From a virus: a DNA stretch of 64,000 bases. The position numbers and the translations under genes were made by a program. The DNA lies in IMG/VR virus record IMGVR_UViG_3300020183_000039, positions 22,570-86,569 of that record. One strand, 5' to 3'. Positions 25,072 through 38,898 of the stretch are shown here, piece after piece. Every line of letters starts with the position of its first letter. The stretch's first letter is position 1. The notes below the pieces were generated by a model, which was not told where the DNA came from, searched no databases, and saw only the letters and a program-made list of their open reading frames with translations.

Positions 25072-25962
25072 CTAGTTCACACTGACCTTGATGGCCGGGT
25101 GCGGGTTGTAATCGTGGAGCTCAAGATCATCAATCGTGAGACTTTTCGGGTTCAGCCGTTTCAACCACTCAGCGGACAAGGCCATGTTGCACTCGTCGCG
25201 ATGCGGGAGCAAGATCATGTCCCTGACGGTATCATAGCAGTTCTTGTAGATGTGCGAATTGGCACTTGGCATGTAGACATACCGAGCGGTCTTACCAGTG
25301 GCTGCCGCTACGACCTTCAGGATGATCGAGTAGCGCGCGATATCGAGCGGGAAGCCCACGACCATGTCGTTGGACCGAGCGGGAACCATGACGTCGAGCC
25401 AGTTGTCCTTGGCGGGACTGAACTGCATCGCGATGTGGCACGGAGGGCATGCGGGATTGACAGCTGTCGGGTTGTGCGTGATAATCGTAGCCTGCCTGGA
25501 GTTCGGGCTTTCGATAAGCCGAACGATCACGTCGAGAAACTGGTCGACAGAACGGTCGGTGACGAGAGTCTCGTTGGGCATCTCCATTCCAGGAGCAGAC
25601 GGCGGCCACTGTCGCCACTGGCGGCAATACGCGGACGCGCCGAGTTCTCCGTTCTCGTCGGCAAGGAAGTCCCAGAAGTGCTTGGCGGGACCGAGAGCCT
25701 CGACATTGGTGCTGAACCCAATGTCGAACAGGAACTCGCGGCAGATGTTCTTCCAGGGAAGCTTCCGAAGGCGGGTGAGAGGGAAACCGACTCGCAAGTC
25801 GGCCCGAACAGAACAGCCGAAAGCGGAACGGGTCTCCCCGTTGCGGCCCTCAAAAATATCCCCATGATCCAGAAGCAGTTCCAGGTACTGCGAGTAGATC
25901 GAATCCCAATTGGACGAAAGAAGGGCTCGGTCTTCGAAGTTCAGAACGTGACCGCGGGTCAT
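25072..25962 (-). CDS. Thymidylate-synthase-family enzyme, predicted dCMP C5 methylase/hydroxymethylase
   Basis: ThyA motifs GRNG, GFPL, WD..ADENGELG, PNSR, PPCH, HIY, PHPAIK are present. RSNDMVVGFPLD has Asp where ThyA (RSxDxxxGxPFN) has Asn. Confidence 0.8.
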   Translation of the reverse strand: MTRGHVLNFEDRALLSSNWDSIYSQYLELLLDHGDIFEGRNGETRSAFGCSVRADLRVGFPLTRLRKLPWKNICREFLFDIGFSTNVEALGPAKHFWDFLADENGELGASAYCRQWRQWPPSAPGMEMPNETLVTDRSVDQFLDVIVRLIESPNSRQATIITHNPTAVNPACPPCHIAMQFSPAKDNWLDVMVPARSNDMVVGFPLDIARYSIILKVVAAATGKTARYVYMPSANSHIYKNCYDTVRDMILLPHRDECNMALSAEWLKRLNPKSLTIDDLELHDYNPHPAIKVSVN

Positions 25963-26204
25963 ACTCCTCCGTAGATTTTCTTGTTGGTTTTCTCGTAGAG
26001 TTCTTCGAACTCAGGGCTATTGTAGCCCTGCGGCATCTGCACGTAGATCTGAGCGGCTGATCTCAGACTCTCGGCGGCTTGAGACCTGTGGCCCATGTCC
26101 CACCGATCGTTGGCGTCATGGAGCCAATCCATAGCGTACGCTAGCATAGCGTCCGGGTCTCTCATCATTGGGAACGGCATGTGCGTTTGAGAGCTTGAAG
26201 GCAA
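25959..26204 (-). CDS. Hypothetical protein
   Basis: ORF abutting its neighbours. The true start may be one of the downstream Met codons. Confidence 0.55.
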   Translation of the reverse strand: MPSSSQTHMPFPMMRDPDAMLAYAMDWLHDANDRWDMGHRSQAAESLRSAAQIYVQMPQGYNSPEFEELYEKTNKKIYGGV

Positions 26205-26782
26205 AGAGCCAGTGCGGCTCGAGCGTTTGTCTGCTTATCGTGAAGCTGTACGTTGGGGAACATCGTGATGTTCTCGTAGAAGTTCAGCAGTTGCTGGGTG
26301 TACAGCTCGTGCTCCTGCATCCGCGCGATGTACTCGTCGCGGATGAACCAGGGAGAAGCGTCTGGGAAGAGCTCTCGAAGTTCTTGCACATGGAGAGGAG
26401 CCGACCAGTGCCAGGGGCGGAGAACCGCGAGGTGAACCACGTTCTCGACCTGATCCGCTAGCTCGATCTCGAAGTCGATAACGTCTTCAAAGTGGCCAGC
26501 GTTGTGCCGGCGATGCTGCTCTAAAATGTAGCTGCAGGGATAGGCCCGATCGAAGATCGCGTGGGTCTCTCGAAGGCCCCACTTGGCGATGTCTTCGCGG
26601 TAGAAATCGAAGATGTTTTTCTGGTTGCTCGGCGGCGGGCCGTGGTGTGCCACGTAGCAATCGCCATCGAGTTCCTTCATCATGGCATCGATCAGAGTAG
26701 ACTTGCCGACGCGGTCCGGGCCAGAGACGATGATGAGCATGTTGGGATTCTTCACGGTTCCATTATAGCGGTCGGTTGGCAT
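26165..26782 (-). CDS. P-loop deoxynucleoside monophosphate kinase
   Basis: IIVSGPDRVGKSTL Walker A and IFDR motif of the thymidylate-kinase fold. Confidence 0.75.
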   Translation of the reverse strand: MPTDRYNGTVKNPNMLIIVSGPDRVGKSTLIDAMMKELDGDCYVAHHGPPPSNQKNIFDFYREDIAKWGLRETHAIFDRAYPCSYILEQHRRHNAGHFEDVIDFEIELADQVENVVHLAVLRPWHWSAPLHVQELRELFPDASPWFIRDEYIARMQEHELYTQQLLNFYENITMFPNVQLHDKQTNARAALALCLQALKRTCRSQ

Positions 26783-27138
26783 GGTAGTCCTATCTGGATG
26801 TGACGAAAGCCCAGACGGAGTCCTCGTCGTAGTACTCCAGATTTAGTACCACGTCCACGGAGCTGAGCATGCGCCGCTCCTTGTGGTCAAAAAAGTTGAT
26901 CGTTGCGTAAGGCCTGCTCCTCGACAGGAGATCGAGATTGTAGAACTGGGCTTTCTTTTTGCTCATCGGTGGTGTCCTCGGAGGTCAAGGGTGAGTTAGA
27001 TAAGGTGGGACGGGGTACATCGTACTTTGTCCAGAAGTAGTCGTTTCATCGGGTCCTGGTCAATCTCCGCAAGATTGCAGGCCTGAACCAGGTTGCATCG
27101 TCCTCGGTACAGGGCATCGAGGGCTCGTTCTAATTTCA

Positions 27139-30036
27139 TCAAAGCAGTCCTCGCTGCACCATAGAGTACCTTGTCTCGAGCTTCTTCACCCAGCCGAGCT
27201 CGGCCATCTGCTTCATCGAGAACTCCTCGCCATCTGGCTCGTCGTCCCACTGGGACGGGGTCTTGGTGCTCTCGTGGACAGACTTGCGGAGCCGGTCGTC
27301 GATCGCCACGGAGGAGAAGAACGCTCGGCTCAGGGGCACGTCGCACATGCCGACGCCCGCTTGGAACCTCGCCCACGAGTACAGGTGGGCCATCTGGAAC
27401 GCCACCGAGAAAGCTTCAGCCTGCTTCTCGGGGACCATGAACCACGTCTCGTCGTGGATCGACAGGATGAACTGCGCGGAGATCTTGAACCGACGAGCCA
27501 GCCAGTGGGACGCCGTCAGGATCACAGCGAGCATCTCGGCGCCGGAGGACTGGATGGTCCAGTTGATGCGGCCGGTGTGGAAGTCGTCGCCAACAGCCGC
27601 TGGGCGAAGCGCTGTGGAGATCTTCGTTCCGAGACAGGGGAGCTGCGGCACCTTAGTTCGAAGTGCGATGCCCTCCATGTAGTTGTAGCAGCCGCTGTCG
27701 CTGCCGCCCTCGTAGTAGCCATCCGGGCTCTTCTGGCCCTTCTTGAAGGCCAAAGCTCGGTTACCATACTGGCGAAGCTCGTTTGTGCCGCGGTCCTTGA
27801 ACTTTTTCTGGATCGTCCCGGCGATGGTCCGGACCCCTGCGCCATAGAGCATAGCGAAACCGACACCCTTGGCCGTGTCGCGGTCGATGTTGATCGCCTT
27901 AGCGAGCTTGGTGTGAGCATCGGTGCCCTTCTCTTTTGAGCCGGAAAGCACCGTGTGCGCCATCGGAGATGCCCCGATGAACCCGCCCTCCCAAGCGTCC
28001 GCATAGATGCTGGCGATCTGAAGCTCCTGGCCGTCGAAGTCAGCCCCGACGATTTTCCAGCCCGGCGGACATTGGATCCTGGACTTCAGCTCGGTGCCGA
28101 TGCGATGGGACTTCGTGGAGCACATGGTGACCATCAACGACTCGACAGTTCGCCGAGTCACGGTCCCATGAGCGATGATCTCGGGCATCATCATGTTCCA
28201 GTGGTTGCCATACGGGTTGTCAACCTCCAGGAAGATGCGGTCCATGACACGCTTGCGCACAGACGTCCAGTAAGAGGCGGCATTCGCGATCTCCAGAGCG
28301 CGCTTAGCGTCTGGCAATTCGCTGCTAAGCCGCCCTACTTCCATGTCCATGGTAAAGTCTTTCGACAGCAGTTGGCCCACGTTATTGCCATTGCCCTTGG
28401 GATGAGGGATCCGCTGGACCTTGCCGTCCTCGTCTGTGAAGCACCAGCCAAGCTCTTTGGTGTTGATCACCGGGCTGCCCTCCCACTTGAGCTTGAGGAG
28501 CAGATTGGAAAGCTTTGACTTAGTGGTGATTCTCTCGTCAGGGCTAGTGAGAAGCTCGGAGGCCCACTTCGGCTTGAATGCGTACTTGCCGGTGTAACCA
28601 CGAGGAGTCCAGCTGAGCTGTGAGAGCCACGGGTCAGCGGCTACCCAGGCGTCGGAGTTGTGCCTCCAGGCATGACCCTGCTTATCGAAGCCACGAAGAA
28701 CGTCAGTGAACTTCACGGTCTTCTTGCCGCCAAGGCCAGCCAGAGCGATAGCGGTCTCAGGGTCCGTATCGAAGAGCTTCTGCGCCTCGAGAAGATCCTT
28801 ATCAAACTCCTTGTTCCACTCGGCGACGTACCGCTCGACCAGCTTGTGGCAGATGTCGGTCATCTCGCGGTTGTGGTTCTCGAAGACCTTCTCGACCTGC
28901 GCGATCCACTTGGTCCAGTCGGTCGAGACAGGAATGCGCGAGCCATTGAGGAAGTAGTGGCCGGCAAGCCCGACCTTCGAGGGAGTAGCGTCGAGGTACT
29001 TCGGCCAGAGAGCTTGGAACAACTCGGTGGTGTAGAACGCGTCTTTCATCGCGTAGTCGAGTAGGTCGCGCCGCTGAGCCAACTGGTGGATCTCCGTCGC
29101 CTTCACGAAGACGTCTCGGATCTCTTTGTCGGCGTCCCGCATGCGGTGGACCTCCTTGCCGAAATACTCTCGAACCGCCGCAACGTGGAAGTTGTAGACG
29201 TTGACCAGAGCGTTGGTCGAGCCTTCGTCGGCCCAGCGCGGGCGGAAGCGGAGCTTCTTCTTCTCCTCTTCGGTCAGATCCTCTGGGTCCTTGCCCGAGA
29301 GCACGTAGAGCCAGCGTTGCCCTGATGCCAGGCCAGACACGGCGATGTGCGCCGAGAGCGTGTCGAAGTAGAAGTTCTCGGGCTCAGTTCGCTCCAGAGT
29401 GTAGCCATCGCGAGCGCGCACTCGGTCGTAGGAGATGTTGTGGCCGACCACGAAGTTGTCGTCACCGAGCGGGATGAGCCCGTACTGAGTCCACTTGTCA
29501 TGCGGAATGAGCGGATCGCACATCTCAGCGGCCAGCCAGACATACGCTGCTTCAGACGAAAGGCAGGTGCCGATGACCGGAAAGGCTCCGTTGACCACGA
29601 AGGTCTCGGTATCGTACGTGAAGGCGCTCTCAAGCGGGTGAGGCACCGACTCAGTCACCCAGTTGTTGCCCTGCTTGGTGTAGCGGGTCCAGCCAGGTTG
29701 GAACACGAAGTCGTCGTAGCTTGGAACAGCTGGAAGACTGGCTTGAGAGAACTCATTCGCTAGCTCGATGTAGCGATCAACAAATTCCCCGGCCATGAGT
29801 TCGAAGTGCCCTTCGATGCCATCGCCCTGCAGTTCCGGAAAGGGCAGGTCTCCGTCGTAGAGATTGTCCGGGTAGTCTACCGGGACAGGGATCTCGAACC
29901 TACTAAGAAGCCGCCTCGACCGTTCGAGCGTGGAGCTCTTGGGCGCGGGGCGGCTTGCGGAACCGAAGAGCTTTTTGTGGAGGTCACCCTCGAGTACAGG
30001 ATAGCCTTGCTCGTTCAGCTTCATAGACGTTGCCAT
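27139..30036 (-). CDS. Family A DNA polymerase, mitochondrial Pol gamma-like
   Basis: LHKKLFG, PGWTRY, TYDTE (ExoI), VVGHNISYDR (ExoII), DTLSAHIAVSGL, PHPKG..NVG, SYWTS, GTVTRR, IGTELK, VGADFDGQE, RDTAK...YGAG, RINWTIQSSG and SIHDE are all POLG-type motifs. Confidence 0.95.
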   Translation of the reverse strand: MATSMKLNEQGYPVLEGDLHKKLFGSASRPAPKSSTLERSRRLLSRFEIPVPVDYPDNLYDGDLPFPELQGDGIEGHFELMAGEFVDRYIELANEFSQASLPAVPSYDDFVFQPGWTRYTKQGNNWVTESVPHPLESAFTYDTETFVVNGAFPVIGTCLSSEAAYVWLAAEMCDPLIPHDKWTQYGLIPLGDDNFVVGHNISYDRVRARDGYTLERTEPENFYFDTLSAHIAVSGLASGQRWLYVLSGKDPEDLTEEEKKKLRFRPRWADEGSTNALVNVYNFHVAAVREYFGKEVHRMRDADKEIRDVFVKATEIHQLAQRRDLLDYAMKDAFYTTELFQALWPKYLDATPSKVGLAGHYFLNGSRIPVSTDWTKWIAQVEKVFENHNREMTDICHKLVERYVAEWNKEFDKDLLEAQKLFDTDPETAIALAGLGGKKTVKFTDVLRGFDKQGHAWRHNSDAWVAADPWLSQLSWTPRGYTGKYAFKPKWASELLTSPDERITTKSKLSNLLLKLKWEGSPVINTKELGWCFTDEDGKVQRIPHPKGNGNNVGQLLSKDFTMDMEVGRLSSELPDAKRALEIANAASYWTSVRKRVMDRIFLEVDNPYGNHWNMMMPEIIAHGTVTRRTVESLMVTMCSTKSHRIGTELKSRIQCPPGWKIVGADFDGQELQIASIYADAWEGGFIGASPMAHTVLSGSKEKGTDAHTKLAKAINIDRDTAKGVGFAMLYGAGVRTIAGTIQKKFKDRGTNELRQYGNRALAFKKGQKSPDGYYEGGSDSGCYNYMEGIALRTKVPQLPCLGTKISTALRPAAVGDDFHTGRINWTIQSSGAEMLAVILTASHWLARRFKISAQFILSIHDETWFMVPEKQAEAFSVAFQMAHLYSWARFQAGVGMCDVPLSRAFFSSVAIDDRLRKSVHESTKTPSQWDDEPDGEEFSMKQMAELGWVKKLETRYSMVQRGLL

Positions 30037-30058
30037 CTGATAGGTTGTGTTTGCCTTG

Positions 30059-30086
30059 ATTATAGCCTCGACGGTCAGTTGTAAAC
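30059..30086 (-). promoter_or_regulatory. Sigma70-like promoter of the polymerase-kinase-dCMP-modifier operon
   Basis: GTTTACA...TATAAT upstream of ATG 30036 (spacer 15-16 nt). Confidence 0.55.
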
Positions 30087-30251
30087 CGTGAGGAGCCCGT
30101 AGGACCCTTTGCCCTCGCGGAGCTCTTCCGCGATCTCGAAAGCCTGCTCAAGAAGAATCTCGCCTTCGATCTCCATCGAATTAGCAAAAAGCTCGTCGGC
30201 ACGGCTCACAAGGTAGTGAATGCGGTCGACGGCTGAGTCGCGGTAGTCCAT
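30075..30251 (-). CDS. Hypothetical 58-aa protein (paralog of 41666..41935)
   Basis: Hand translation MDYRDSAVDRIHYLVSRADELF...LLEQAFEIAEEL. CATAAT lies upstream. Confidence 0.6.
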   Translation of the reverse strand: MDYRDSAVDRIHYLVSRADELFANSMEIEGEILLEQAFEIAEELREGKGSYGLLTVYN

Positions 30252-30435
30252 GGAAGGGGTCCTGTCTGAGGTATTATGCCTCGAGGAGAGCTAGTGAATA
30301 CTTCGGCTCTTCTCAAAGATTCCTCGGCAGATGTCGATGTCTCTCATCGCTTGCTCGAGAGACTCTGCATTGCCGGCGAAGATTTCGTCCACCGCAGCAC
30401 CGCAATTGAGGACCCAGCGGTACTGGGAGACATGC

Positions 30436-30840
30436 TCACTGAACCAGATCTGGCAAATCGGATGGCTCACGGCGTCGTCCTTTAAGCGCATTTCCGGAGT
30501 CGCGTCTCCAGTTGTAGCCAGATGACAGGTTGACCTTGTCTTCAGGTGGGATGTCCCAGAGGGTTTTACCTATGTCGCCATCGAACAACCCGATATCAAA
30601 GTTGTCGTCAAGCTCTTCGAGGAACTCTCGACGCTCGTTCCACTTCCGGTGTAATCGAAGCCTCCACTTCATGTACTCGTCTCTGGCTCGTCGACTCTTA
30701 GTCGCTTTCCACTGAGAGTACCAGTTCTCGAGCGCGCTCACGATGCCGATTCCGGCTTTCATCTTGAGCTGCCCCAGTTTCTTCTGGTTGGAGTTGGTCT
30801 CTTCAGCCCACTCCTCGAGTCCCCGGATGTTGCTAGTCAA
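30436..30840 (-). CDS. Hypothetical protein
   Basis: 134-aa ORF coupled to the upstream gene. Confidence 0.55.
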   Translation of the reverse strand: MTSNIRGLEEWAEETNSNQKKLGQLKMKAGIGIVSALENWYSQWKATKSRRARDEYMKWRLRLHRKWNERREFLEELDDNFDIGLFDGDIGKTLWDIPPEDKVNLSSGYNWRRDSGNALKGRRREPSDLPDLVQ

Positions 30841-31681
30841 GGTCCGCCTCCAGACGAGTAGTTATGGCCTGTTTGTTGAGCTCTGGGATGCCACTTCCCT
30901 CCCTGACGTCATCTCTGTACCTCTCGATGTTCTCCATTGCGTCGAACACCAGAGGGAAGCTGAGAGCCCGGTTAGCAGGGAAGTCCCGCCAGGCTATCAT
31001 TTCAGCAAGAGTGTAAGGTGAATCTTCTTCCCAAGCCTCGTCTCTGGCACCATACAGGAGCGGGAGGCCGTCATTGACCCACCACTCCCGAACGATGGGG
31101 ACGTACTTGTCCCAAGTACCAGGTTCGACAAGCGATAGTTTGCACTCCTCGCGGAACGCTTTGACGTAGTGGCGCCCGCGCTTGACGACTTCTACCGCGC
31201 TCGGAGGTACCTCCTCGAGGATATAGGCCTCCTCGCCGCTCATGACCCTTTCGTAGACAGACGGGAAGAGGATCGCCTGAGATATCAACTCGAAGTCGGG
31301 AGCAGTATCGCCCTGCTTCGACCAGTTAGATATGTTGAAGAGGATCGAATCGAAGATCGCCACTGTGCGGGCTTTCTTCACGGCCTCGGTCGTCACCGTG
31401 GTCTTGGCTGCCGTGGCATTGGCCTTCTCGAGCTCGGCCTCTAGCTCCTGGATGCGCCTCTGGAGCTTTCGATTCTCAGTCGTCGCAGCCCGCTCGACTT
31501 TGGCTTTGTAGGCGTCTAGACCTTGCCCGATCTTGTCGGCCGCGATCGTCATCTTGCCCATGTGCTCTTCGAGCTTCTGCACCCAGAGGTTGAACGAGTT
31601 CTCGAGCTTCTTGATGTCCGCCACCATCTCATCCTTCTGAGTGTTGAGGCGGTTAAGCTCGTAGTCGATCCAGTGGTGCAT
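30833..31681 (-). CDS. Hypothetical protein with N-terminal coiled coil
   Basis: 282-aa ORF with heptad-rich N-terminus. Confidence 0.65.
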   Translation of the reverse strand: MHHWIDYELNRLNTQKDEMVADIKKLENSFNLWVQKLEEHMGKMTIAADKIGQGLDAYKAKVERAATTENRKLQRRIQELEAELEKANATAAKTTVTTEAVKKARTVAIFDSILFNISNWSKQGDTAPDFELISQAILFPSVYERVMSGEEAYILEEVPPSAVEVVKRGRHYVKAFREECKLSLVEPGTWDKYVPIVREWWVNDGLPLLYGARDEAWEEDSPYTLAEMIAWRDFPANRALSFPLVFDAMENIERYRDDVREGSGIPELNKQAITTRLEADLD

Positions 31682-31705
31682 CAGAGTTGGTTCCTGTTTG
31701 GTGTA

Positions 31706-32311
31706 TTATGCTACCAAGGACGCCCCGGTAGATTTAGATTCCAAGCCGCAACCTCTATCGCTTCGCGTCGACAAAGCCCCTGCTGACGAGCTACGCGGTA
31801 ACGGGTCTCGTACTGCCTCTCTTTTCCTAAGCTTCTGGCTGTCTCCCAGAACGCTCGGCAACGGTTGTCCAATTCGCCATCCATGGCGGTGGTACCTGAC
31901 AAGAAAGCCTTTGAGGGCTCCGTCGTTGACCTCGTCGGGAAGTGGCCTGTGCCCCTTAACGAAAATCCTCCACGAGTCGAAGGCGTATTGCCCACAACCG
32001 TAGAGGCTTCGGGGATCTTTTCGATCCCATTCAATGTACTGCTCCGACATCTTTCTGAGCCGCTTGGCCTTGACGTTCGAGAAACCGTGAGGCTTCAGTA
32101 GTTCCTCAAGCGAGGAATCTGAAGACGCGAGCTCTGCGGCGATCGGCCATCTTTCGAACAAACTTTCTAAGCAGATGTCCCAGGCCTCTGTCCTGCGGCT
32201 CTGATTTAGCAGGATGGCTGAGACAAGGATGTGCCATTCGGTCGGGAGAGACTCTTGGATGAGCCACTCTCTTGCGTAGGAACTCGAGAGGGGCGGGTTG
32301 GTTTCCGACAT
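31706..32311 (-). CDS. MBD4-like HhH DNA glycosylase (T:G/U:G mismatch type)
   Basis: LIQE..WHILVSAILLN...WP...ELLKPHG...AK.L..MSEQY...LYGCGQYAFDSWRIF parallels the MBD4 glycosylase domain (LVQE...LHGIGKYGNDSYRIF). Catalytic Asp retained. Confidence 0.85.
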   Translation of the reverse strand: MSETNPPLSSSYAREWLIQESLPTEWHILVSAILLNQSRRTEAWDICLESLFERWPIAAELASSDSSLEELLKPHGFSNVKAKRLRKMSEQYIEWDRKDPRSLYGCGQYAFDSWRIFVKGHRPLPDEVNDGALKGFLVRYHRHGWRIGQPLPSVLGDSQKLRKREAVRDPLPRSSSAGALSTRSDRGCGLESKSTGASLVA

Positions 32312-32933: not shown

Positions 32934-33632
32934 TCAGAAGTAGATCAACTGCCGGTCTTCGATTCTGTAGACAGGCAGGCGCCCGCCCTCGTTGCCGCAA
33001 GAGCCATCGAGTACGATCGAAGAGTCGCTGATGTGTACGCAGTGGTAGTGGCCAGCAACGCGTGTCCACGGGAAAGTCTTGTCGGTTTCCCACCAACGAA
33101 CGCGCTGCCCGGTCGCGTGGTCGATCTTGCCGTAGAGCATCATGCCGCGAGCCTTGGAGTTAGTGTCCTCGTAGAGCACAGGTCGTGCCATGGCTTCGTT
33201 GATCTCCCCGCCGATCCAGCTAGGGAAATAGGCGTGAGCCGCTCTGTACTCTCTCAAGCGAGAATCTTTGAAGATGTAGCCGTAGTAAGCTTTGGACAGC
33301 CAGGTCCGGATCTCCTCGCGGTCGATGTTCGTATCGTCGAACTCCTTGATCGTGCGTGCCAGCCCTGGCGTCTTAACCAGATCGACCGGGTTGCCCTTGT
33401 AGAACCGGAGGAGCTTGTCCTGGTGGTTCGAATGGATGACCACGGCCCCGAACGCGTCCTGGAAGGTGCGCACTAGGCCGTAGACCTCAGCGGTCTCGGA
33501 CGTGTTACAGCGTGAGTCGAACAGGTCACCGAGGAGGATGACGAGGCAGTCCGGGATCTGAGCCGCGTACTCTAGAGCTTTCTCCAGCGGGCGCGCTTGC
33601 GAGTGCACGTCGCCGATGATCAAAGTTTCCAT
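32934..33632 (-). CDS. Metallophosphoesterase (Pnkp phosphatase-like)
   Basis: IGDVH, LGDLFD, SNH, AHA, GHYH, LDG motifs. Start overlaps the kinase stop (TGATG). Confidence 0.8.
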   Translation of the reverse strand: METLIIGDVHSQARPLEKALEYAAQIPDCLVILLGDLFDSRCNTSETAEVYGLVRTFQDAFGAVVIHSNHQDKLLRFYKGNPVDLVKTPGLARTIKEFDDTNIDREEIRTWLSKAYYGYIFKDSRLREYRAAHAYFPSWIGGEINEAMARPVLYEDTNSKARGMMLYGKIDHATGQRVRWWETDKTFPWTRVAGHYHCVHISDSSIVLDGSCGNEGGRLPVYRIEDRQLIYF

Positions 33633-34081
33633 CAGATGCGTATCGTGGCGGTGAAGCCCTCTTTGTCGATAGACGAGAGCTGGGATTTCAGGATGCACCA
33701 CATGTTCTCCACCACGTGGTCTGGCACCTCGCGGTCCCGAGCCGAGTTGCGGGCCAAGCACTCTTCAAGAGTGGCGTCGACGACCACCCCGATCACGGTC
33801 TCGTACCCGGAGCGTCGTAACAGGTTGATCGCCTCGCGGCGGTAGGAGGTCCTGTAGTGGGTCGCGTCTAAGATAACGGGGTTACCTACGTTAGTGCTGA
33901 CCTTGCGTTCTAGGACCTTCTTGATCTCCGCCCAGTCGCCCTGGATCCTCTCCGACCCGTAGAGCTCCTCTCGGATCGTGTCGGTCGAAACGACAAGAGC
34001 CCCGACTACGTCAGCCAGGACTCTAGCACGTGTGGTCTTGCCAGAGCCCGGGGCCCCGATCATGACATACGCGGCGGTCAT
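33632..34081 (-). CDS. Polynucleotide-kinase-like P-loop kinase (AAA_33)
   Basis: GAPGSGKTT, STDTIR, ILDATH, ECLARN..R.REVP. Confidence 0.85.
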   Translation of the reverse strand: MTAAYVMIGAPGSGKTTRARVLADVVGALVVSTDTIREELYGSERIQGDWAEIKKVLERKVSTNVGNPVILDATHYRTSYRREAINLLRRSGYETVIGVVVDATLEECLARNSARDREVPDHVVENMWCILKSQLSSIDKEGFTATIRI

Positions 34082-34149
34082 CTTGTTCCTTTATGCCATT
34101 CCAATTCTATCCGAGTCTGACTTAAGCAAACCTGGCTTGTACCGGCTGA

Positions 34150-34893
34150 TCAAGTGGTTTCTCTGAGAGCGATACCGGTGATGATGCCAGTGAAGAAAGA
34201 GCCCGTATCGATCCTTAGCACGTCTCCGGTCTTCGTCTCGTAGACCACTGGCTCTCCGTTGCGGCAGATCGTGTGCCCGTGCACTGTCAGATAGTCTTTG
34301 CCGTAGCCTTCGACATGGCGATCCCAGATCAGAACCTCTGGATCTTGCTCGTCAAGCGGGACCCCGGACTCGACCGAAGCGTGGCTCACGAGAAGCTTTC
34401 GAGGCTCGTCGTGCTCCCACTCGATCTCAGAAGGATGCTCGTAGTAGAGCGGAAGAGTCTCCAGCCATGACCACATGTCGGTATCGGTCATGAAGTCGAA
34501 GTTCTCCTTCGTGCCGCCATTCTGCTTCCAGAGCTGGTATTTGCCTTTGGCCAGCCGGAACGGATTGCCCTGGACGTGTTCGTCTTTGGACTCCTTGTAA
34601 GCGTCCAGTGCCATCTGCTCGTGGTTGCCGCGGACTACGTGCACAGCTTTGAGCCCGTACGACTTGGGCTTCTCGTGGATAGCGCGCACCGTGCGAAGCA
34701 CAACGTCACTGTCGTCACCTCGGTCGATCAAGTCGCCAGTGAAGACCAGCGTGCATCTAGTACCATAAACCTGGGCTAGTATCTGACGAAGAGCGTCAGC
34801 GCAACCATGGATGTCACCGATGACCACGACGGATTTGTCGTCGAGCTTGTGATCGGCTAGAAGGACACCTTGCTGTTGGAGTTGGTTTTCCAT
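34150..34893 (-). CDS. PPP-family/ApaH-like metallophosphatase
   Basis: IGDIHG, GDLIDRG, RGNHE, W..NGG, VHGHT, IDTG. Confidence 0.85.
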   Translation of the reverse strand: MENQLQQQGVLLADHKLDDKSVVVIGDIHGCADALRQILAQVYGTRCTLVFTGDLIDRGDDSDVVLRTVRAIHEKPKSYGLKAVHVVRGNHEQMALDAYKESKDEHVQGNPFRLAKGKYQLWKQNGGTKENFDFMTDTDMWSWLETLPLYYEHPSEIEWEHDEPRKLLVSHASVESGVPLDEQDPEVLIWDRHVEGYGKDYLTVHGHTICRNGEPVVYETKTGDVLRIDTGSFFTGIITGIALRETT

Positions 34894-35576
34894 GGGTCCA
34901 TCATAAACTATAAAGGAGCCATTAAGGAGCAAAGTGAATCAATCCGGGAACTGGTCACCTTTGCCACTTAGACTTTTGGCAAAGAGTTCGGTCCACTCCT
35001 CGAGCTCTTCGGTTCGCATGACCGTGAGACCATTGTCTTGGATCAGGTCGTGGAGCTGCTGGACTCTGTCCAGCTCTTCTTGAGTGATCATAATGTCTCT
35101 CATGCGCACAGTCCGTGGTCGGTCGCGTAGCGCCCCTTGTCTCCCTTCTTCAGTCGAAGAGCAAGCATCAGGGAGTCTTCGGCCGAAAGGCTTCTTACCT
35201 CCCCGATGTACTCACCGAAAGGATCCCTAACGCGGACGACGTGGACCGAGCGGCCGCCTGAGCCGCCCAGAGTCCCGTCTTCGTAGAGCTCGAAGATGTA
35301 GCCTGTCATTGACCTCCTTTGTGGTCCTATATGTTCATTCTATACCCGAGCCGAGCAACCGTAAACAACTCTACTGCAATGTGGTCGCCATCTCGAGGGC
35401 GATGCGGCGAAGATCGTCGGACGTCATGTGCTCGAGCCCAGCTTCGTCCATGATGTCCGCGGTCTTCTTCAGGTACGAGATGAGCGAATCGAGGATAGCG
35501 TTGCTCAGGTGCTGCTCGAGCAGTTTCTCGAGCTCCTGCTGAGTGTAGCCAGGTGGAGCGATGATTTGAACTTCGC

Positions 35577-35975
35577 TCATTTGTCTACGTTGAAGACTGG
35601 AGCAGGGATGCTTCCTTGGCTTGGGATCATGTACACGGTCTTGTTACCATTCTTGTTACCCTCTTCAAGGCCCGTGATCCAAAGATATGACAGGTAGTCG
35701 CGGTTGCCCTTGAGGCTATCGCCGATGATCTGGTTGGCCTGAGCGACACCTTTGGCACGTTCGACCTCGGCCTGAGCAAGCTCTTTGGCAGAGTCGAGCT
35801 TGGCCTTGGCCTCGAGCACGGCCACTTGACGGGTGAACTCGGCCTCCTGGAGCTGAGCTTTACCGCTGAGGGTCTTGGTGTACACGCCGTACTGTGGCAA
35901 GCCGAAAGCCAAGCCGCCGACGACGATGGCACCAAGCAGGCCGATGATGATCGCGCTAGACTCGTCGTTTCGCAT
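35577..35975 (-). CDS. Membrane-anchored coiled-coil protein (band-7-related phage family)
   Basis: N-terminal hydrophobic helix followed by AEVERAKGVAQANQIIGDSL. Confidence 0.6.
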   Translation of the reverse strand: MRNDESSAIIIGLLGAIVVGGLAFGLPQYGVYTKTLSGKAQLQEAEFTRQVAVLEAKAKLDSAKELAQAEVERAKGVAQANQIIGDSLKGNRDYLSYLWITGLEEGNKNGNKTVYMIPSQGSIPAPVFNVDK

Positions 35976-36239
35976 TAGTCTTGTGGGTTGTTGTGGACTA
36001 GCAGGTGGTTGAGGAATGCAGCCGAGAAGGCCGAAGCAATCCAAAGAAGGAAGAAGCTCATTCCCAGAACCGATCTCCTAAGCCAAGGGCCATAACCATT
36101 GTAGCATAATCACCCTCAGAAGTAAACCCGGAAGCCGCCCATCGATCGTAGGCGCACTTGTAGACGAAACCCCAGAGCTGCTGCTTCTTGGTCATCTGGT
36201 ACCTCTCAGCCGCGATGCGGGCCTTGTTGATCGTGTCCA

Positions 36240-36869
36240 TCAGATGTCGAGGTCGACGTAGGATAGCTCTCCGAGGCCGATGAACTCGACCCCGTCGAAC
36301 ACGGTGTGGTGATCGAAGTGCCAGTGCCCGTGGATCCAGAGCTCTGGCTTGTGCACGTAGAGCAGGTTGTCGAAGAACTGCCGTGTGACGCTGGGGATGT
36401 CGTACTTGTACTTGTTCTTCACGCTAAGGACGTGGTTCACCATGGTCTCGGGGCACTCGTGGGAGACAACGACCTTCGGACGAGCCTCCTCGTAAGCGTC
36501 CATGAGCGTGAGAAACTCCGAGTAGCTGAGCTCTTCGTCGGCCCACCAGTCCCAGCCCTCCGTGCGAAGATGCTTGTCAATCGACAGAGCACCGCCAACA
36601 CAGAACACGGAATCGTCAACCAACGCACCGTCAGGGATCCAACACTGATGAGAACGGCACTGCGAGGGGTTATCATGGTTGCCTCGGATGAACTTGTGGT
36701 CGCCCTTGGACATGGCGTCAAAAGGCGGGCGGGAGTAGATTTCGGTACGAGGGTTGTAGAACCCTATGCCGAGGTCGCCCACTTGGATCGAGCGAGGGAC
36801 ATCCTTGATGAGCTTCTTGTAGCGAGTCCACTTGCCGTGGACATCACCGATGAAGCGGATAGTGGTCAT
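36240..36869 (-). CDS. Metallophosphoesterase
   Basis: IGDVHG, QVGDLG, RGNHDN, GGALSID, SHECP, HGHWH. Confidence 0.85.
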   Translation of the reverse strand: MTTIRFIGDVHGKWTRYKKLIKDVPRSIQVGDLGIGFYNPRTEIYSRPPFDAMSKGDHKFIRGNHDNPSQCRSHQCWIPDGALVDDSVFCVGGALSIDKHLRTEGWDWWADEELSYSEFLTLMDAYEEARPKVVVSHECPETMVNHVLSVKNKYKYDIPSVTRQFFDNLLYVHKPELWIHGHWHFDHHTVFDGVEFIGLGELSYVDLDI

Positions 36870-37107
36870 GTGTCCATCCACTCCCAGCCAAGCAAGAATC
36901 TGGTCATCAGGCGGCTGAGGCGATTAGGGCGCTTAGCCACGTGGACGTGAAAGTTCCCGTTGATCCTCCAGCAACCGGCGGTCTTCGGAATTTCGATTTG
37001 AGATCCCGCGATCGTGAACGTATTCGGGCAAGTCAATTTAAGCGGCTCCCCGATATTGTTCTCGGTAACTGTCACGCCCCACGGGTCAGGCACGTTAATC
37101 TCGTTGT

Positions 37108-38190
37108 TCATAGGACTGCGATCTCCTGGTACTTCTTCTCTGTCTGCTCGGAGAGCCACTCGGAGAAGCTCGAGTATTTGCCAGCTCTGATACCGAACAT
37201 GGCGCCGCTCACAGCTTTATGGTGCTCCATGACCTGCATAGCGAACTCCTTCTGGTTCAGCTCTCGGTAGAGCCGCACGAAGTCTTCGACCCAGTGGCCG
37301 ATCACGGCGATCTGAGAGACCCGCAGGTCGAACTCCTTGCGATACTCCGGAAAGTAAGTCAAGAACTCTTCGAGATCATCGGCCTTCCAAAGCTCGAAGA
37401 AACTCGGGTCGCCATTGCCCTTGACCTGGTGCATGCGGACGTACGACTCGCCCTTGACCTTCAGTCGGCTACCGTGCTTGTCCACGATGACAAAGCCTTC
37501 GTGCTCTGAGCCCTTGAGTGTGGACGCGCACTCGAGGATCTTGTCCAGAGATCGGAGGTAGGTCCAGGGTTGCGCGACTTGGAATGTCCCGCTGAAGCCT
37601 TCCAAAGGCATCTCGGCCATGGTCGCTTTGTCGCGCACGGCCAGAAGCGGAAGAGTGTCAAACTTGTGGTTGACGACGACCTTGTTGCGCGACGAGCAGA
37701 GCTCGAAGATGTAGACGAGACTCGGTTCCAGATCGTCCTTGGAGTACCCGACCTTGCCGAACACCTGCCAGAAGAGCTGCTCGAATGTCATCGGCATCTC
37801 GCCGAACCGAATGTCCGCTCCGACGGTCCCGGACGTGGAGACCACCCAGGTCCCGTAGTGATTGAAGAGCTTGATGAGAGACCCGTCGTACTTCTCGTAG
37901 ACCCGAGCCGACTTCCAGTCGATCTCAGCGGCCCACGGCTCTCCCGGGTTGAAGAACCGGTCGAACGCGTACGCCACGGTCTGCCACGTGCCGAACCAGT
38001 CCTCGACAACCGCACCACGGCACACTTGCACGATGCGGGAGGACTTGTCAGCTATCGGCCCGTACTTCAAGCAGTAGAGGCCGGTGTGGCGCTGGTCGTT
38101 CGTGATACGGATGCCTTGCTCCTTGAGCGACTCGAGACCATGCTCGGAGATCCACTCTTCGAGGAAGACGACAGATGGGTTCCTTTCCAT
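37108..38190 (-). CDS. RNA ligase (T4 Rnl1-like)
   Basis: CRG, FDRFFN, EKYDGSL (motif I Lys), FEL, EGFVI (IV), LKVK (V). Confidence 0.85.
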   Translation of the reverse strand: MERNPSVVFLEEWISEHGLESLKEQGIRITNDQRHTGLYCLKYGPIADKSSRIVQVCRGAVVEDWFGTWQTVAYAFDRFFNPGEPWAAEIDWKSARVYEKYDGSLIKLFNHYGTWVVSTSGTVGADIRFGEMPMTFEQLFWQVFGKVGYSKDDLEPSLVYIFELCSSRNKVVVNHKFDTLPLLAVRDKATMAEMPLEGFSGTFQVAQPWTYLRSLDKILECASTLKGSEHEGFVIVDKHGSRLKVKGESYVRMHQVKGNGDPSFFELWKADDLEEFLTYFPEYRKEFDLRVSQIAVIGHWVEDFVRLYRELNQKEFAMQVMEHHKAVSGAMFGIRAGKYSSFSEWLSEQTEKKYQEIAVL

Positions 38191-38201
38191 GAGTTGATCA
38201 T

Positions 38202-38229
38202 AAAGAAAGGGCGACCGAGTTAGCCGCCC
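38202..38229 (-). terminator. Probable terminator
   Basis: GGGCGG...TCGCCC hairpin followed by TTTCTTT. Confidence 0.55.
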
Positions 38230-38333
38230 TTGTACCAGTTCATTCGTTGGTCGCTTCGATGATGATCGCAGCTATGACGCCGATGACCCATAGCAGACCG
38301 ATACCGATGAAGATGTTGAGGCTCCAGACTGGG

Positions 38334-38651
38334 TCAGTCATCGTTCTCGAGGAACCAGTTGTCAGGTTTGGTGAACCAACATGCCAGGTCGGTAGGATCT
38401 TGCGGGCCGATGAGGTGGTTCCGAGGGTCCGGGTCTCCGAGGTCGAGGTCGTTGAGGAACTCGTTCATGGAGCCCGGCTCAGGCTTTCCCTGGATGGCTT
38501 CTCGACGCGCTTGGTTGATGATACGAGCCGCGGACCGATTGTGGTCTGCCCACTTCTGTGCCCAGGTCATCTCCTCGAAAGAGACGGCGATGCCGCCCGC
38601 GATGCGGGCCGCGATGTCCTCGAGGCGAAGGCGCGTCTCGGTGGAAAGCAT
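38334..38651 (-). CDS. Conserved cyanophage-type hypothetical protein
   Basis: MLSTETRLRLEDIA...LDLGDPDP. Recalled as a common cyanophage hypothetical. Confidence 0.6.
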   Translation of the reverse strand: MLSTETRLRLEDIAARIAGGIAVSFEEMTWAQKWADHNRSAARIINQARREAIQGKPEPGSMNEFLNDLDLGDPDPRNHLIGPQDPTDLACWFTKPDNWFLENDD

Positions 38652-38685
38652 GTTGATCTCTCGGCCTGAGGGATCTTACCTCGAA

Positions 38686-38757
38686 AGCCTTCGACTGGAT
38701 TTGAACCAGCGACCTGCTGTTTACGAAACAGCTGCACTACCACTGTGCTACGAAGGC
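38686..38757 (-). tRNA. tRNA-Thr(CGT)
   Basis: Acceptor GCCTTCG/CGAAGGC, anticodon arm GCTGT-TTCGTAA-ACAGC, T-loop GGTTCAAATCC. No encoded CCA. Confidence 0.9.
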
Positions 38758-38759
38758 GA

Positions 38760-38897: not shown

Positions 38898-38898
38898 A

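What the first reader, a model, noticed from the sequence alone, without database searches (positions are those of the whole stretch)
25072..32311. Candidate cytosine-modification and repair system: dCMP-type ThyA + kinase + Pol gamma-like polymerase + MBD4-like glycosylase
Seen: the ThyA homolog keeps catalytic PCH and HIY but reads RSNDMVVGFPLD, with Asp at the E. coli Asn177 position. A dNMP kinase and the polymerase lie just upstream on the same strand, and an MBD4-type glycosylase with intact catalytic Asp lies 1.7 kb beyond the polymerase. Established: that Asn selects dUMP, while Asp occurs in T4 dCMP hydroxymethylase and Asn->Asp mutants of ThyA methylate dCMP. MBD4 excises T, U or hmU opposite G, the deamination products of 5mC, C and 5hmC. 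As I recall, the related phage S-TIM5 was reported to have heavily methylated cytosines. Inference: the phage makes 5m(or hm)dCMP, phosphorylates it, incorporates it with its own polymerase and repairs the resulting mismatches. The ThyA-like length and C-terminus favour a methylase. No dCTPase is visible in this window.
Basis: partly seen in the sequence, partly recalled or inferred. Interest (0 to 1): 0.9.

Follow-up and report, generated by a model that had tools for sequence, protein, structure and literature searches.

The report
Cyanophage dCMP-modifying enzyme with kinase partner
A fragment of a cyanobacterial virus carries a thymidylate-synthase look-alike built to modify cytosine rather than uracil nucleotides, always paired with a small kinase, so the virus probably makes DNA with methylated cytosine to escape host nucleases; the idea is known, but this enzyme lineage and its kinase partner are new.

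Summary
The genes lie where stated, and the ThyA homologue has Asp at the E. coli Asn177 position. That Asp is kept in 120 of 120 closest homologues.

- **New lineage.** The enzyme is much closer to canonical ThyA than to the Xp12, T4 or RB69 dCMP enzymes. It shares this lineage with S-TIM5 "ThyA".
- **Product.** Published signatures exclude a T4-type hydroxymethylase (Cys, not Asp/Glu, three residues before the catalytic Cys; ThyA-type C-terminal tail kept). They also exclude a 5-hydroxy-dCMP synthase (Asp169 kept). 5-methyl-dCMP is therefore the likeliest product, but this is unproven.
- **Kinase.** The "dNMP kinase" is a small PPK2-like P-loop kinase. It sits beside the enzyme in 15 of 15 relatives. 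Across five Pol-gamma cyanophage records the two genes are present or absent together.
- **Polymerase.** Pol gamma is not tied to the module.
- **Glycosylase.** The MBD4-like glycosylase is an accessory gene, present in 6 of 14 relatives. The all-5mC phage Xp12 encodes a family member two genes from its dCMP methylase. However, most viral loci with this glycosylase show no nearby ThyA homologue.
- **Completeness.** The contig is only about 39% of a genome. A fuller relative adds ThyX, dCMP deaminase and RNR, but no recognisable dCTPase.

The parts
25072..25962 (-). Thymidylate-synthase homologue with Asp at the Asn177 position. Predicted dCMP C5-modifying enzyme, most likely a 5-methyl-dCMP synthase.
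   Evidence: PF00303 5.1e-50. Site table in E. coli numbering: E58, W80, Y94, C146, H147, R166, S167, D169, H207 and Y209 kept. Changes: L143C, Q165A, C168N, N177D, W83L, R127Q. ThyA-type C-terminal tail kept. Asp177 and Cys143 are each found in 120 of 120 homologues.
25959..26204 (-). Small conserved ORF (about 73 aa from the Met shared with homologues) wedged between kinase and ThyA homologue. It overlaps both. Function unknown.
   Evidence: No Pfam or PHROG hit. Homologues sit at the same place in 8 of the 18 related loci.
26165..26740 (-). Small (about 191 aa) P-loop kinase of a PPK2-like family. Predicted kinase for the modified dCMP.
   Evidence: A family profile matches solved PPK2 / polyP:AMP phosphotransferases at E 4.8e-8 to 2.4e-7, nearly full length (profile 6-180 against chain 68-242). 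Thymidylate kinases match at 5.6e-5. Pfam PPK2 is matched by 7 of 15 members, all below cut-off. The gene lies next to the ThyA homologue in 15 of 15 loci that have upstream DNA. It co-occurs with the ThyA homologue across five Pol-gamma phage records.
27139..30036 (-). Pol gamma-like family A DNA polymerase with a mitochondrial-type exonuclease domain. It is the replicase, not specific to the modification module.
   Evidence: PF18136 3.5e-56 and PF00476 1.3e-10. 48.7% identical to S-CBWM1 Pol gamma. S-CBWM1, A-HIS1 and Mic1 lack the ThyA homologue and the kinase.
31706..32311 (-). MBD4-like HhH-GPD DNA glycosylase, an accessory gene. Predicted to excise T, U or hmU opposite G.
   Evidence: PF00730 31.5 bits against a cut-off of 26.2. 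MBD4 structures match at E 3e-12. In 70 homologues, catalytic Asp112 is kept in 67, Gln19 in 69 and Tyr92 in 61. Present in 6 of 14 related loci that span its insertion point. Family members occur in Xp12 and S-TIM54.

Best explanation
The window is part of an incomplete genome of a Pol-gamma cyanophage. Its ThyA homologue belongs to a separate lineage of thymidylate-synthase relatives that has switched from dUMP to dCMP. It most likely transfers a methylene from 5,10-methylene-tetrahydrofolate to C5 of dCMP and reduces it, giving 5-methyl-dCMP. The neighbouring small PPK2-like kinase then phosphorylates the modified nucleotide, using ATP or possibly polyphosphate. Host enzymes or the same kinase complete the triphosphate, and the phage replicase incorporates it, so virion DNA carries 5-methylcytosine in place of some or all cytosine. 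Thymidylate is made separately, by ThyX plus dCMP deaminase in the fuller relative. In some members of the clade, including this one, an MBD4-like glycosylase removes T (or U) opposite G that arises by deamination. Shown here: the residues, the gene linkage and the distributions. Inferred: substrate, product, kinase substrate and phosphate donor, extent of replacement, and the role of the glycosylase.
For: **Substrate**
- Asp at position 177 is kept in 120 of 120 homologues.
- Gln165, which is Gln in both canonical enzymes of the table, is replaced in all six Asp177 enzymes compared.
- Ser167 and Arg126, the markers of deoxyribose substrates in the MilA paper (PMC5175136, passages), are kept.

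**Redundancy for dTMP**
- The fuller syntenic relative G002 and S-TIM5 each have ThyX as well as the Asp177 enzyme.

**Product**
- The T4-type hydroxymethylase signature is Asp/Glu three residues before the catalytic Cys, with D145N inactive, and no C-terminal tail (PMC6400193, passages).
- Here that residue is Cys in 120 of 120 homologues, and the ThyA-type tail (...PHPAIKVSVN) is kept.
- T4 gp42, the SP8 ThyA homologue and a T4-like metagenomic enzyme all have Asp there and lack that tail.
- The 5-hydroxy-dCMP signature D169N (PMC13326640, section 28) is absent.

**Kinase**
- Adjacency in 15 of 15 loci, including four loci where Pol gamma lies on the other side.
- ThyA homologue and kinase are both present in G002 and S-TIM5 (not adjacent in S-TIM5). 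Both are absent from S-CBWM1, A-HIS1 and Mic1.
- PPK2-like by profile.

**Glycosylase**
- MBD4-like active site conserved.
- Xp12 protein QNN97216.1, two genes from the Xp12 ThyA homologue, matches the family HMM at 6.9e-19 and MBD4 structures at 4.9e-14.
- S-TIM54, a TIM5-like contig (G007) and a contig with a T4-type hydroxymethylase (G010) also pair the glycosylase with an Asp177 enzyme.
Against: - No biochemical or base-composition data exist for this clade.
- Cys at position 143 fits neither published class (Leu in ThyA, Asn in Xp12, Asp/Glu in hydroxymethylases), so the signatures exclude known alternatives rather than prove methylation.
- The enzyme is only 22% identical over 116 residues to the Xp12 methylase (E 7e-6).
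- S-TIM5, whose enzyme shares the same signature, has a gene matching T4 DNA alpha-glucosyltransferase (PF11440, 35 bits, N-terminal 131 of 355 positions). G002 has a 5-hmdU-DNA-kinase-like gene (PF18723, 8.2e-21). Both hint at hydroxymethyl bases in relatives.
- No dCTPase (MazG, dUTPase or gp56-like), no DHFR and no C5 DNA methyltransferase were found in G000 or G002. How dCTP would be excluded, and who recycles dihydrofolate, is therefore open.
- The kinase matches PPK2 and thymidylate kinase only below family cut-offs, and no fold could be predicted.
- The glycosylase is missing from 8 of 14 relatives.
- In 75 of 80 viral loci with this glycosylase, no ThyA homologue lies within the fetched flanks. 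In 12 of 14 long records none was found at all. These records are fragments, 3-61% complete.
Confidence: 0.5

Rival explanations
1. The enzyme is a dCMP hydroxymethylase. It makes 5-hydroxymethyl-dCMP, which in some relatives is further decorated after replication, by glucosylation in TIM5-like phages or via phosphorylation in G002.
For: S-TIM5 carries an alpha-glucosyltransferase-like gene, and TIM5-like genomes are annotated with GT and DNA alpha-GT genes (PMC10087341, figure legend). G002 has a 2OG-Fe(II) oxygenase and a 5-hmdU-DNA-kinase-like gene side by side. The Ser-x-Tyr motif of T4 dCH is present as S110-A111-Y112. W83 is lost, as in T4 gp42. No DHFR was found in the phage records.
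Against: The essential acidic residue three before the catalytic Cys is Cys in 120 of 120 homologues, and D145N kills T4 dCH. The ThyA-type C-terminal tail that closes the folate site is kept, whereas the three enzymes with the hydroxymethylase signature that I compared lack it. Ser-x-Tyr and loss of W83 also occur in the Xp12 methylase. The glucosyltransferase and kinase-like genes are absent from this contig and from the syntenic site.
Confidence: 0.2
2. The invariant Cys three residues before the catalytic Cys (a CPPC motif) marks something not yet described. It could be a redox switch that ties enzyme activity to the host's light or thioredoxin state, or a different fate for the exocyclic methylene intermediate, giving another C5 group.
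For: Cys143 is invariant in 120 of 120 homologues and in S-TIM5, S-TIM54 and G007. Residue 143 lies within 6 A of C5 of the substrate in E. coli ThyA (PMC13326640, section 28). No characterised enzyme in the comparison has Cys there. This family has already yielded unexpected chemistry: flavin-dependent 5-hydroxylation.
Against: This is pure inference from one residue. Every other residue needed for normal methyl transfer is kept. No model could be built to measure the Cys-Cys distance.
Confidence: 0.12
3. The enzyme feeds thymidylate supply rather than DNA modification. 5-methyl-dCMP (or its triphosphate) is deaminated to the thymidine nucleotide, as proposed for part of the Xp12 pool.
For: G002 has a dCMP deaminase. 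5mC-selective deaminases next to Asp177 enzymes are described in bioRxiv 10.1101/2024.12.05.627091 (passages).
Against: G002 and S-TIM5 both already have ThyX. The G002 deaminase lies about 77 kb from the ThyA homologue. A dedicated kinase would be unnecessary.
Confidence: 0.06
4. The glycosylase is a general deamination or mismatch repair enzyme of marine and freshwater phages, unconnected to cytosine modification. It sits near the ThyA homologue here only because both lie in the replication module.
For: At least 525 viral stretches encode relatives. In 75 of the 80 loci kept, no ThyA homologue lies within the flanks. In 12 of 14 records over 30 kb none was found. The recurrent neighbours are a 5'-3' exonuclease, a UvrD helicase, a family A polymerase and a primase. 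Within this clade the gene is present in only 6 of 14 loci.
Against: Among 50,697 isolate records, the window's protein finds only S-TIM54 and the Xp12 protein finds only Xp12-like phages. S-TIM54 and Xp12 encode Asp177 enzymes; I did not check the ThyA homologues of the other Xp12-like records. In Xp12 the gene lies two genes from the methylase. The long records without a ThyA homologue are fragments, 3-61% complete.
Confidence: 0.45
5. It is an ordinary thymidylate synthase acting on dUMP.
For: It scores above the TIGR03284 cut-off (124.2 against 108.35), and its best solved relatives are canonical enzymes.
Against: Asp177 is invariant, and Asn-to-Asp switches preference to dCMP (literature cited in PMC8670742, section 11). 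The protein falls below the cut-offs of the other seven NCBIfam thymidylate-synthase models matched. ThyX is present in relatives.
Confidence: 0.03

Closest known systems
Xanthomonas phage Xp12 dCMP methyltransferase (ThyA homologue QNN97214.1) and its gene cluster
   Same: Asp at position 177. A non-acidic residue at 143. Asp169 kept. A C-terminal segment that aligns with the ThyA tail. An MBD4-like glycosylase of the same family in the same genome, two genes away.
   Different: Only 22% identity over 116 residues (E 7e-6). Xp12 has Pro at 147 and Asn at 143; the window has His and Cys. Xp12 pairs its enzyme with an adjacent dCMP deaminase, DHFR and a hydrolase or pyrophosphohydrolase, and has no ThyX. 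No homologue of the PPK2-like kinase was found in the half of Xp12 searched, bases 30000-63783.
Cyanophage S-TIM5 'ThyA' (AEZ65733.1) and hypothetical protein AEZ65699.1
   Same: Closest isolate homologue (36-39% identity), with the same signature: Cys143, His147, Asn168, Asp169, Asp177 and a full tail. S-TIM5 also has Pol gamma, ThyX and a homologue of the kinase (E 1.5e-27).
   Different: In S-TIM5 the two genes are about 36 kb apart. S-TIM5 has an alpha-glucosyltransferase-like gene. Both proteins carry only generic or hypothetical annotation. Among the isolates, only S-TIM54 has the glycosylase.
T4 gp42 dCMP hydroxymethylase with gp1 dNMP kinase and gp56 dCTPase
   Same: The same logic: a ThyA homologue with Asp177 modifies dCMP before replication, and a phage kinase phosphorylates the product.
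   Different: T4 gp42 has Asp at 143 and Thr at 147 and lacks the tail. Pairwise E is only 6e-4. No gp56-like dCTPase and no glucosyltransferase were found here. The kinase here is PPK2-like.
RB69 gp48 / DLP3 gp80 5-hydroxy-dCMP synthases (PMC13326640)
   Same: A ThyA homologue with Asp177, accompanied by a dedicated kinase. RB69 ORF045, annotated thymidylate kinase and lying three genes from gp48, weakly matches the kinase profile (3.9e-5 among 61 ORFs).
   Different: The diagnostic D169N is absent here. RB69 has Glu at 143 and Thr at 147 and a truncated C-terminus.
Polyphosphate kinase 2 (PPK2) and polyP:AMP phosphotransferases
   Same: GxDxxGK Walker A, the FDR(S/A)(W/Y) motif, and similarity over nearly the whole length to solved PPK2/PAP chains.
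   Different: About 190 aa against the 263-312 aa of the best-matching solved PPK2/PAP chains. Below the Pfam PPK2 cut-off in every member tested. It forms its own family of 185 clusters at 50% identity. Substrate and phosphate donor are untested.
Human and mouse MBD4 glycosylase domain
   Same: Best solved relative (E 3e-12). Catalytic Asp and the base-contacting Gln and Tyr are conserved, and a hydrophobic residue (Phe) stands in the wedge position. The MBD4 residue numbers and roles are recalled, not taken from a call.
   Different: No methyl-CpG-binding domain. The intercalating Arg of MBD4 aligns with Gln, although an invariant Arg lies three residues later. A C-terminal tail of about 60 residues is present in part of the clade only.

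Membership tests
Thymidylate synthase superfamily (PF00303) | Domain match over the whole length, with catalytic Cys146, Glu58, Tyr94, Arg166-Ser167, His207 and Tyr209 | tested here: met
   PF00303 5.1e-50 covering 2-264 of 266 positions. All listed residues are present.
dCMP-specific ThyA homologues | Asp in place of Asn177 | tested here: met
   Asp in the window and in 120 of 120 homologues. Rule taken from PMC8670742 section 11 and PMC13326640 section 24.
dCMP-specific ThyA homologues | Activity on dCMP and not on dUMP | not testable with these tools
   Needs an enzyme assay or in vivo expression with LC-MS.
Deoxyribose-specific members (as opposed to MilA-type CMP enzymes) | Ser at 167 and Arg at 126 | tested here: met
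   Both are present. Rule from PMC5175136 passages.
T4-type dCMP hydroxymethylase | Asp or Glu three residues before the catalytic Cys | tested here: not met
   Cys in the window and in 120 of 120 homologues. Rule from PMC6400193 passages.
T4-type dCMP hydroxymethylase | Ser/Thr-x-Tyr at the proton-abstracting Tyr | tested here: met
   S110-A111-Y112, invariant in 24 of 24 sequences of alignment A3. The Xp12 methylase has it too, so it does not discriminate.
T4-type dCMP hydroxymethylase | No ThyA-type C-terminal tail | tested here: not met
   24 residues align after E. coli position 235, ending ...YNPHPAIKVSVN against ...YDPHPGIKAPVAI.
5-hydroxy-dCMP synthase (RB69 gp48 type) | Asn in place of Asp169 | tested here: not met
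   Asp is kept, in RSND. Rule from PMC13326640 section 28.
Xp12-type dCMP methyltransferase | Asp177 with a non-acidic residue at 143 and a C-terminal tail. This is my working description; no published signature was seen. | tested here: met
   Sequence relatedness to Xp12 is weak, however (E 7e-6), so this is 'works like', not clade membership.
Xp12-type dCMP methyltransferase | 5-methyl-dCMP as product and dihydrofolate as by-product | not testable with these tools
   Needs an assay.
PPK2 (PF03976) | Score above the Pfam gathering cut-off | tested here: not met
   The window protein has no PPK2 match at E up to 1. 7 of 15 family members match, best E 2.1e-5, none reported above the cut-off.
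PPK2 (PF03976) | Profile-level similarity across the kinase core, including Walker A GxDxxGK and the FDRS(W/Y) motif | tested here: met
   A profile of 62 family members against solved PPK2/PAP: E 4.8e-8 to 2.4e-7, profile positions 6-180 of 185.
PPK2 (PF03976) | Polyphosphate-dependent nucleotide phosphorylation | not testable with these tools
   Needs an assay.
MBD4-type HhH-GPD glycosylase | HhH-GPD domain with the catalytic Asp after the hairpin | tested here: met
   PF00730 31.5 bits against a cut-off of 26.2. The Asp aligns with the MBD4 Asp and is kept in 67 of 70 homologues.
MBD4-type HhH-GPD glycosylase | Closer to MBD4 than to Nth or MutY, and lacking the Fe-S cluster loop | tested here: met
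   MBD4 chains match at 3e-12 against endonuclease III at 6.6e-4. The protein ends without a Cys cluster, read directly.
MBD4-type HhH-GPD glycosylase | Excision of T, U or hmU opposite G | not testable with these tools
   Needs an assay.

The most novel reading that the evidence does not exclude
Pol-gamma cyanophages (this clade and the TIM5-like phages) use a previously unrecognised two-gene module to make a modified cytosine nucleotide. The first gene is a ThyA-derived dCMP enzyme whose invariant CPPC motif gives it either redox control or a new C5 chemistry. The second is a miniature PPK2-type kinase that draws on the cyanobacterial polyphosphate store to push the modified nucleotide to the triphosphate. 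MBD4-like glycosylases are the recurrent viral answer to deamination of 5-substituted cytosines.
Probability: 0.15. Interest if true: 0.8.

Novelty: new variant of a known kind. Interest (0 to 1): 0.6.

Why it matters
- **Sequencing bias.** Modified cytosines decide whether phage DNA survives host restriction. They also affect how well it is cut, cloned and sequenced. A widespread cyanophage group with 5-substituted cytosine would bias viromics and change how cyanophage-host defence is read.
- **Limits of current rules.** This enzyme lineage arose from canonical ThyA independently of the T4, RB69 and Xp12 types. Its signature (Cys143, His147) is one that present prediction rules do not cover.
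- **Polyphosphate link.** A PPK2-type kinase as the partner would tie modified-nucleotide synthesis to polyphosphate.
- **Repair link.** The recurrence of MBD4-like glycosylases beside dCMP-modifying enzymes, including in Xp12, gives a testable link between base modification and dedicated repair. It may also yield small T:G or hmU:G glycosylases useful as reagents.
- **Ready test.** S-TIM5 is in culture, so base composition can be tested directly.

Tried and rejected
- **Close phage DNA.** A megablast of the region against 50,697 phage records found nothing.
- **RL38J1 lead.** Rhizobium phage RL38J1 was among the top tblastn hits, and the paper lists that phage as a 5-hydroxy-dCMP producer. 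The matching gene RL38J1_166 turned out to be a canonical ThyA (Asn177, next to DHFR), so the lead was dropped.
- **DHFR argument.** I considered arguing that a host without DHFR would force a hydroxymethylase. I dropped it: the Synechococcus elongatus control has DHFR, and any folate-synthesising cell needs that activity (established knowledge).
- **Kinase alone.** Single-sequence searches with the kinase gave nothing specific. Only profiles reached PPK2.
- **Glycosylase neighbourhoods.** A survey of other viral contigs did not show an association with ThyA homologues. I report this as evidence against a fixed system.
- **Literature.**
  - S-TIM5 + methylated + restriction: 1 paper, irrelevant.
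  - S-TIM5 + cytosine: 6 papers; passages read in two, neither gives base composition.
  - cyanophage + 5hmC + thymidylate synthase + dCMP hydroxymethylase: 14 papers, none on this clade judging by titles and abstracts.
  - MBD4 + bacteriophage + glycosylase + 5mC + Xp12: 41 papers; none of the 15 listed describes a phage MBD4-like enzyme, judging by titles and abstracts.
  - The AXL1 paper notes an ENDO3c-domain protein shared with Xp12 and assigns it no function (passages).
- **Supplements closed.** The alignment figures and supplementary tables of PMC13326640 and of bioRxiv 10.1101/2024.12.05.627091 may show whether any verified 5-methyl-dCMP synthase has Cys at position 143.
- **Weak negatives.** The dUTPase search did not ring in T4, and the gp56 search had no positive control, so both negatives are weak.

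Full report
**What is there.** The window is bases 22570-86569 of a single 86,569-base viral contig. IMG/VR classes the contig as linear, and CheckV rates it about 39% complete. Nearly all genes run on the minus strand. The finding's genes are real:
- a 296-aa thymidylate-synthase homologue, 25072-25962 (PF00303, E 5.1e-50);
- a small ORF with no family hit;
- a P-loop protein, 26165-26782, whose homologues start at the Met at 26740;
- a 965-aa Pol gamma-like polymerase (PF18136 3.5e-56, PF00476 1.3e-10);
- after two unknown genes, a 201-aa HhH-GPD protein at 31706-32311.

No phage record is close at the DNA level. By polymerase, the nearest isolates are S-CBWM1 (48.7%), the TIM5-like phages (about 36.6%), A-HIS1/A-HIS2 (about 31-32%) and Mic1 (about 31%). 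The contig ends inside a psbA-like gene, so the host is a cyanobacterium.

**The enzyme's active site.** Alignment with E. coli ThyA and with typed enzymes shows the following.
- The catalytic machinery is kept: Glu58, Trp80, Tyr94, Cys146, His147, Arg166, Ser167, Asp169, His207, Tyr209.
- Asn177 is replaced by Asp.
- Further changes are L143C, Q165A, C168N, W83L, F176L and R127Q.
- The Asp is present in 120 of 120 closest database homologues, and so is the Cys at 143.
- Ser167 and Arg126, the markers of deoxyribose substrates (PMC5175136, passages), are present.

That Asn177-to-Asp shifts specificity to dCMP is established. It is used routinely to predict modified-cytosine phages (PMC8670742 section 11; PMC13326640 section 24; bioRxiv 10.1101/2024.12.05.627091, passages). 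So the core idea of the finding is a known kind of inference, correctly applied.

**Which product.** Two papers give signatures.
- *T4-type hydroxymethylases.* They need Asp or Glu three residues before the catalytic Cys (D145N is dead). They have Ser-x-Tyr and lack the C-terminal tail that closes the folate site in ThyA (PMC6400193, passages; PMC5175136, passages).
- *5-hydroxy-dCMP synthases.* They have Asn in place of Asp169 (PMC13326640 section 28).

In my nine-enzyme table, T4 gp42, the single ThyA homologue of phage SP8 (whose DNA has 5hmdU in place of T) and a T4-like metagenomic enzyme all have Asp at 143 and no ThyA-type tail. RB69 gp48 has Glu143 and Asn169 and is truncated. E. coli ThyA and RL38J1_166 have Leu143 and the tail. 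The Xp12 methylase has Asn143 and a tail-like end. The window's enzyme has Cys143, Asp169 and a tail ending ...YNPHPAIKVSVN, against ...YDPHPGIKAPVAI in E. coli.

This is exclusion, not proof. Cys143 is unprecedented among the typed enzymes I could compare. With the catalytic Cys it forms an invariant CPPC motif. My estimates are about 0.85 for dCMP as substrate, about 0.6 for methyl, 0.2-0.25 for hydroxymethyl, and the rest for something else.

**An independent lineage.**
- Against canonical enzymes: 30-34% identity (E 1e-34 with E. coli ThyA, 6.5e-43 with RL38J1_166).
- Against the dCMP enzymes: barely alignable (Xp12 E 7e-6, T4 gp42 6e-4, RB69 gp48 8e-3).
- It falls below the cut-offs of seven of the eight NCBIfam thymidylate-synthase models it matches.
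- Its nearest isolate relative is the gene annotated 'ThyA' in S-TIM5 and S-TIM54, which shares Cys143, His147, Asn168, Asp169, Asp177 and the tail.

**It is not the thymidylate source.** I fetched a syntenic relative whole: G002, 149,878 bases, with direct terminal repeats (CheckV 69%) and a ThyA homologue 70% identical to the window's. In the roughly 40 kb that the window's contig lacks, G002 encodes ThyX, a dCMP deaminase and both ribonucleotide reductase subunits. S-TIM5 also has ThyX beside its Asp177 enzyme. Xp12 has no ThyX.

**The kinase.**
- Alone, the protein gives only generic P-loop hits and an N-terminal match to a PHROG called thymidylate kinase.
- A 15-member family profile reaches solved PPK2 enzymes at 2e-5.
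- A 62-member profile, built from a scan of 1.84 billion representatives (185 clusters at E up to 0.001), reaches PPK2 and polyP:AMP phosphotransferases at 4.8e-8 to 2.4e-7 over nearly its whole length. Thymidylate kinases score 5.6e-5.
- Pfam PPK2 is matched by 7 of 15 members and Thymidylate_kin by 4 of 15, none above a cut-off.
- It is thus a small (about 190 aa) PPK2-like kinase family, not a T4 gp1-type enzyme.

Its link to the ThyA homologue is the best-supported part of the 'system'. One search gave 20 loci. Two were set aside as distant (24% identity, and 36% over 61 residues), leaving 18. Fifteen of these have DNA upstream of the ThyA homologue, and all 15 have the kinase there (14 directly beside it, one 2.2 kb away). 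This includes four loci where the polymerase lies on the other side. Across five Pol-gamma cyanophage records, enzyme and kinase are both present in G002 and S-TIM5 (about 36 kb apart in S-TIM5, annotated hypothetical). Both are absent from S-CBWM1, A-HIS1 and Mic1. Five genomes are few, and they are related to one another.

**The polymerase.** It is the replicase of the whole group and occurs without the module, so nothing ties it specifically to modified nucleotides.

**The glycosylase.** MBD4 glycosylase domains are its best solved relatives (3e-12). The catalytic Asp, the Gln and the Tyr that contact the flipped base in MBD4 (roles recalled) align and are conserved: 67, 69 and 61 of 70 homologues respectively.

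It is an accessory gene. Of 14 related loci that span its insertion point between two conserved genes, 6 have it.

*For a link to modified cytosine:*
- Xp12, whose DNA has 5mC in place of all C (PMC7653180, passages), encodes QNN97216.1 two genes from its ThyA homologue. This protein matches the family HMM at 6.9e-19 and MBD4 structures at 4.9e-14, with the Asp aligned.
- Relatives of QNN97216.1 are found in 13 Xp12-like records.
- S-TIM54, a TIM5-like contig and a contig with a T4-type hydroxymethylase also carry both genes.

*Against such a link:*
- The family is large in viral metagenomes. At least 525 stretches encode relatives.
- Only 5 of the 80 loci kept have a ThyA homologue within the flanks.
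- Only 2 of 14 records over 30 kb have one anywhere, although these records are fragments.
- The usual neighbours are ordinary replication genes.

I rate a T/U:G repair activity as likely, and a specific tie to cytosine modification as about even.

**What is missing.**
- No C5 DNA methyltransferase, DHFR, MazG, dUTPase-family or gp56-like gene was found in the window's contig or in G002. Whether cytosine is fully or partly replaced cannot be said.
- G002, but not this contig, has a 2OG-Fe(II) oxygenase and a 5-hmdU-DNA-kinase-like gene side by side at a syntenic site.
- S-TIM5 has an alpha-glucosyltransferase-like gene.
- These two observations keep open the possibility that some relatives carry hydroxymethyl-derived bases.

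**Limits.**
- The 2012 S-TIM5 paper and all supplements were unavailable.
- All functional statements are inference from sequence, linkage and distribution.

**Verdict.** This is a sound observation. It describes a new lineage and variant of a known strategy (pre-replicative cytosine modification by a ThyA homologue), with a new type of kinase partner and an intriguing but not exclusive association with MBD4-like glycosylases.

Noticed in passing
window 63709-63951 (contig end); relative G002 142481-143674: The contig ends inside a gene whose product is 86% identical over 58 residues to the start of the G002 psbA-like protein (PF00124, 6.6e-91). This marks the phage as a cyanophage and suggests the assembly broke at psbA.
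   Followed up: partly
G002 37105-39202 (L030:17105-19202); syntenic site in window about 38190-39013: The relative carries a 2OG-Fe(II) oxygenase (PF13759) directly followed by a protein matching the helical domain of 5-hmdU DNA kinase (PF18723, 8.2e-21). Both lie between the lysozyme-like and RNA-ligase genes. Both are absent at the same place in the window. This is a possible post-replicative pyrimidine hypermodification pair.
   Followed up: partly
window 32934-38190: A cluster of three metallophosphoesterases (32934-33761, 34150-34932, 36240-36881), a polynucleotide-kinase-like AAA_33 protein (33632-34081) and a T4 Rnl1-type RNA ligase (37108-38190). It looks like an RNA (tRNA) repair set.
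   Followed up: no
window 25435-25449 (codons for CPPCH in the ThyA homologue): The catalytic Cys is preceded by an invariant Cys three residues earlier, giving a CPPC motif in 120 of 120 homologues and in the TIM5-like enzymes. None of the typed enzymes I compared has it.
   Followed up: partly
L053-L125 (IMG/VR contigs, median G+C 36%): A large group of low-G+C viral contigs encodes MBD4-like glycosylases 35-42% identical to the window's. These usually sit beside a 5'-3' exonuclease, a UvrD-type helicase, a family A polymerase or an AEP primase. No isolate in the phage collection matched them through the window's protein.
   Followed up: partly
L008:4048-4596 (RB69 ORF045): The gene annotated thymidylate kinase inside the RB69 5-hydroxycytosine gene cluster weakly matches the profile of the window's kinase family (E 3.9e-5 among 61 ORFs).
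   Followed up: no
G002 114660-116567 (L034:14660-16567): The relative encodes a 635-aa protein with a strong tryptophan-halogenase match (PF04820, 4.8e-101), about 0.5 kb upstream of ThyX. This is unusual for a phage.
   Followed up: no
genome 2190-7254, outside the window (L002): Two large proteins have weak protein-kinase / ABC1-like matches at their C-terminal ends (PF00069, PF03109, PF01636; E 3e-4 to 4e-6). Earlier first-reader notes on this genome describe them as a polymorphic array.
   Followed up: no
window 57879-59210 (+ strand): One of the few plus-strand genes: a 443-aa protein that joins a phage lysozyme domain (PF00959, 7.5e-39) to a C39-like cysteine peptidase domain (PF13529, 2.8e-11).
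   Followed up: no
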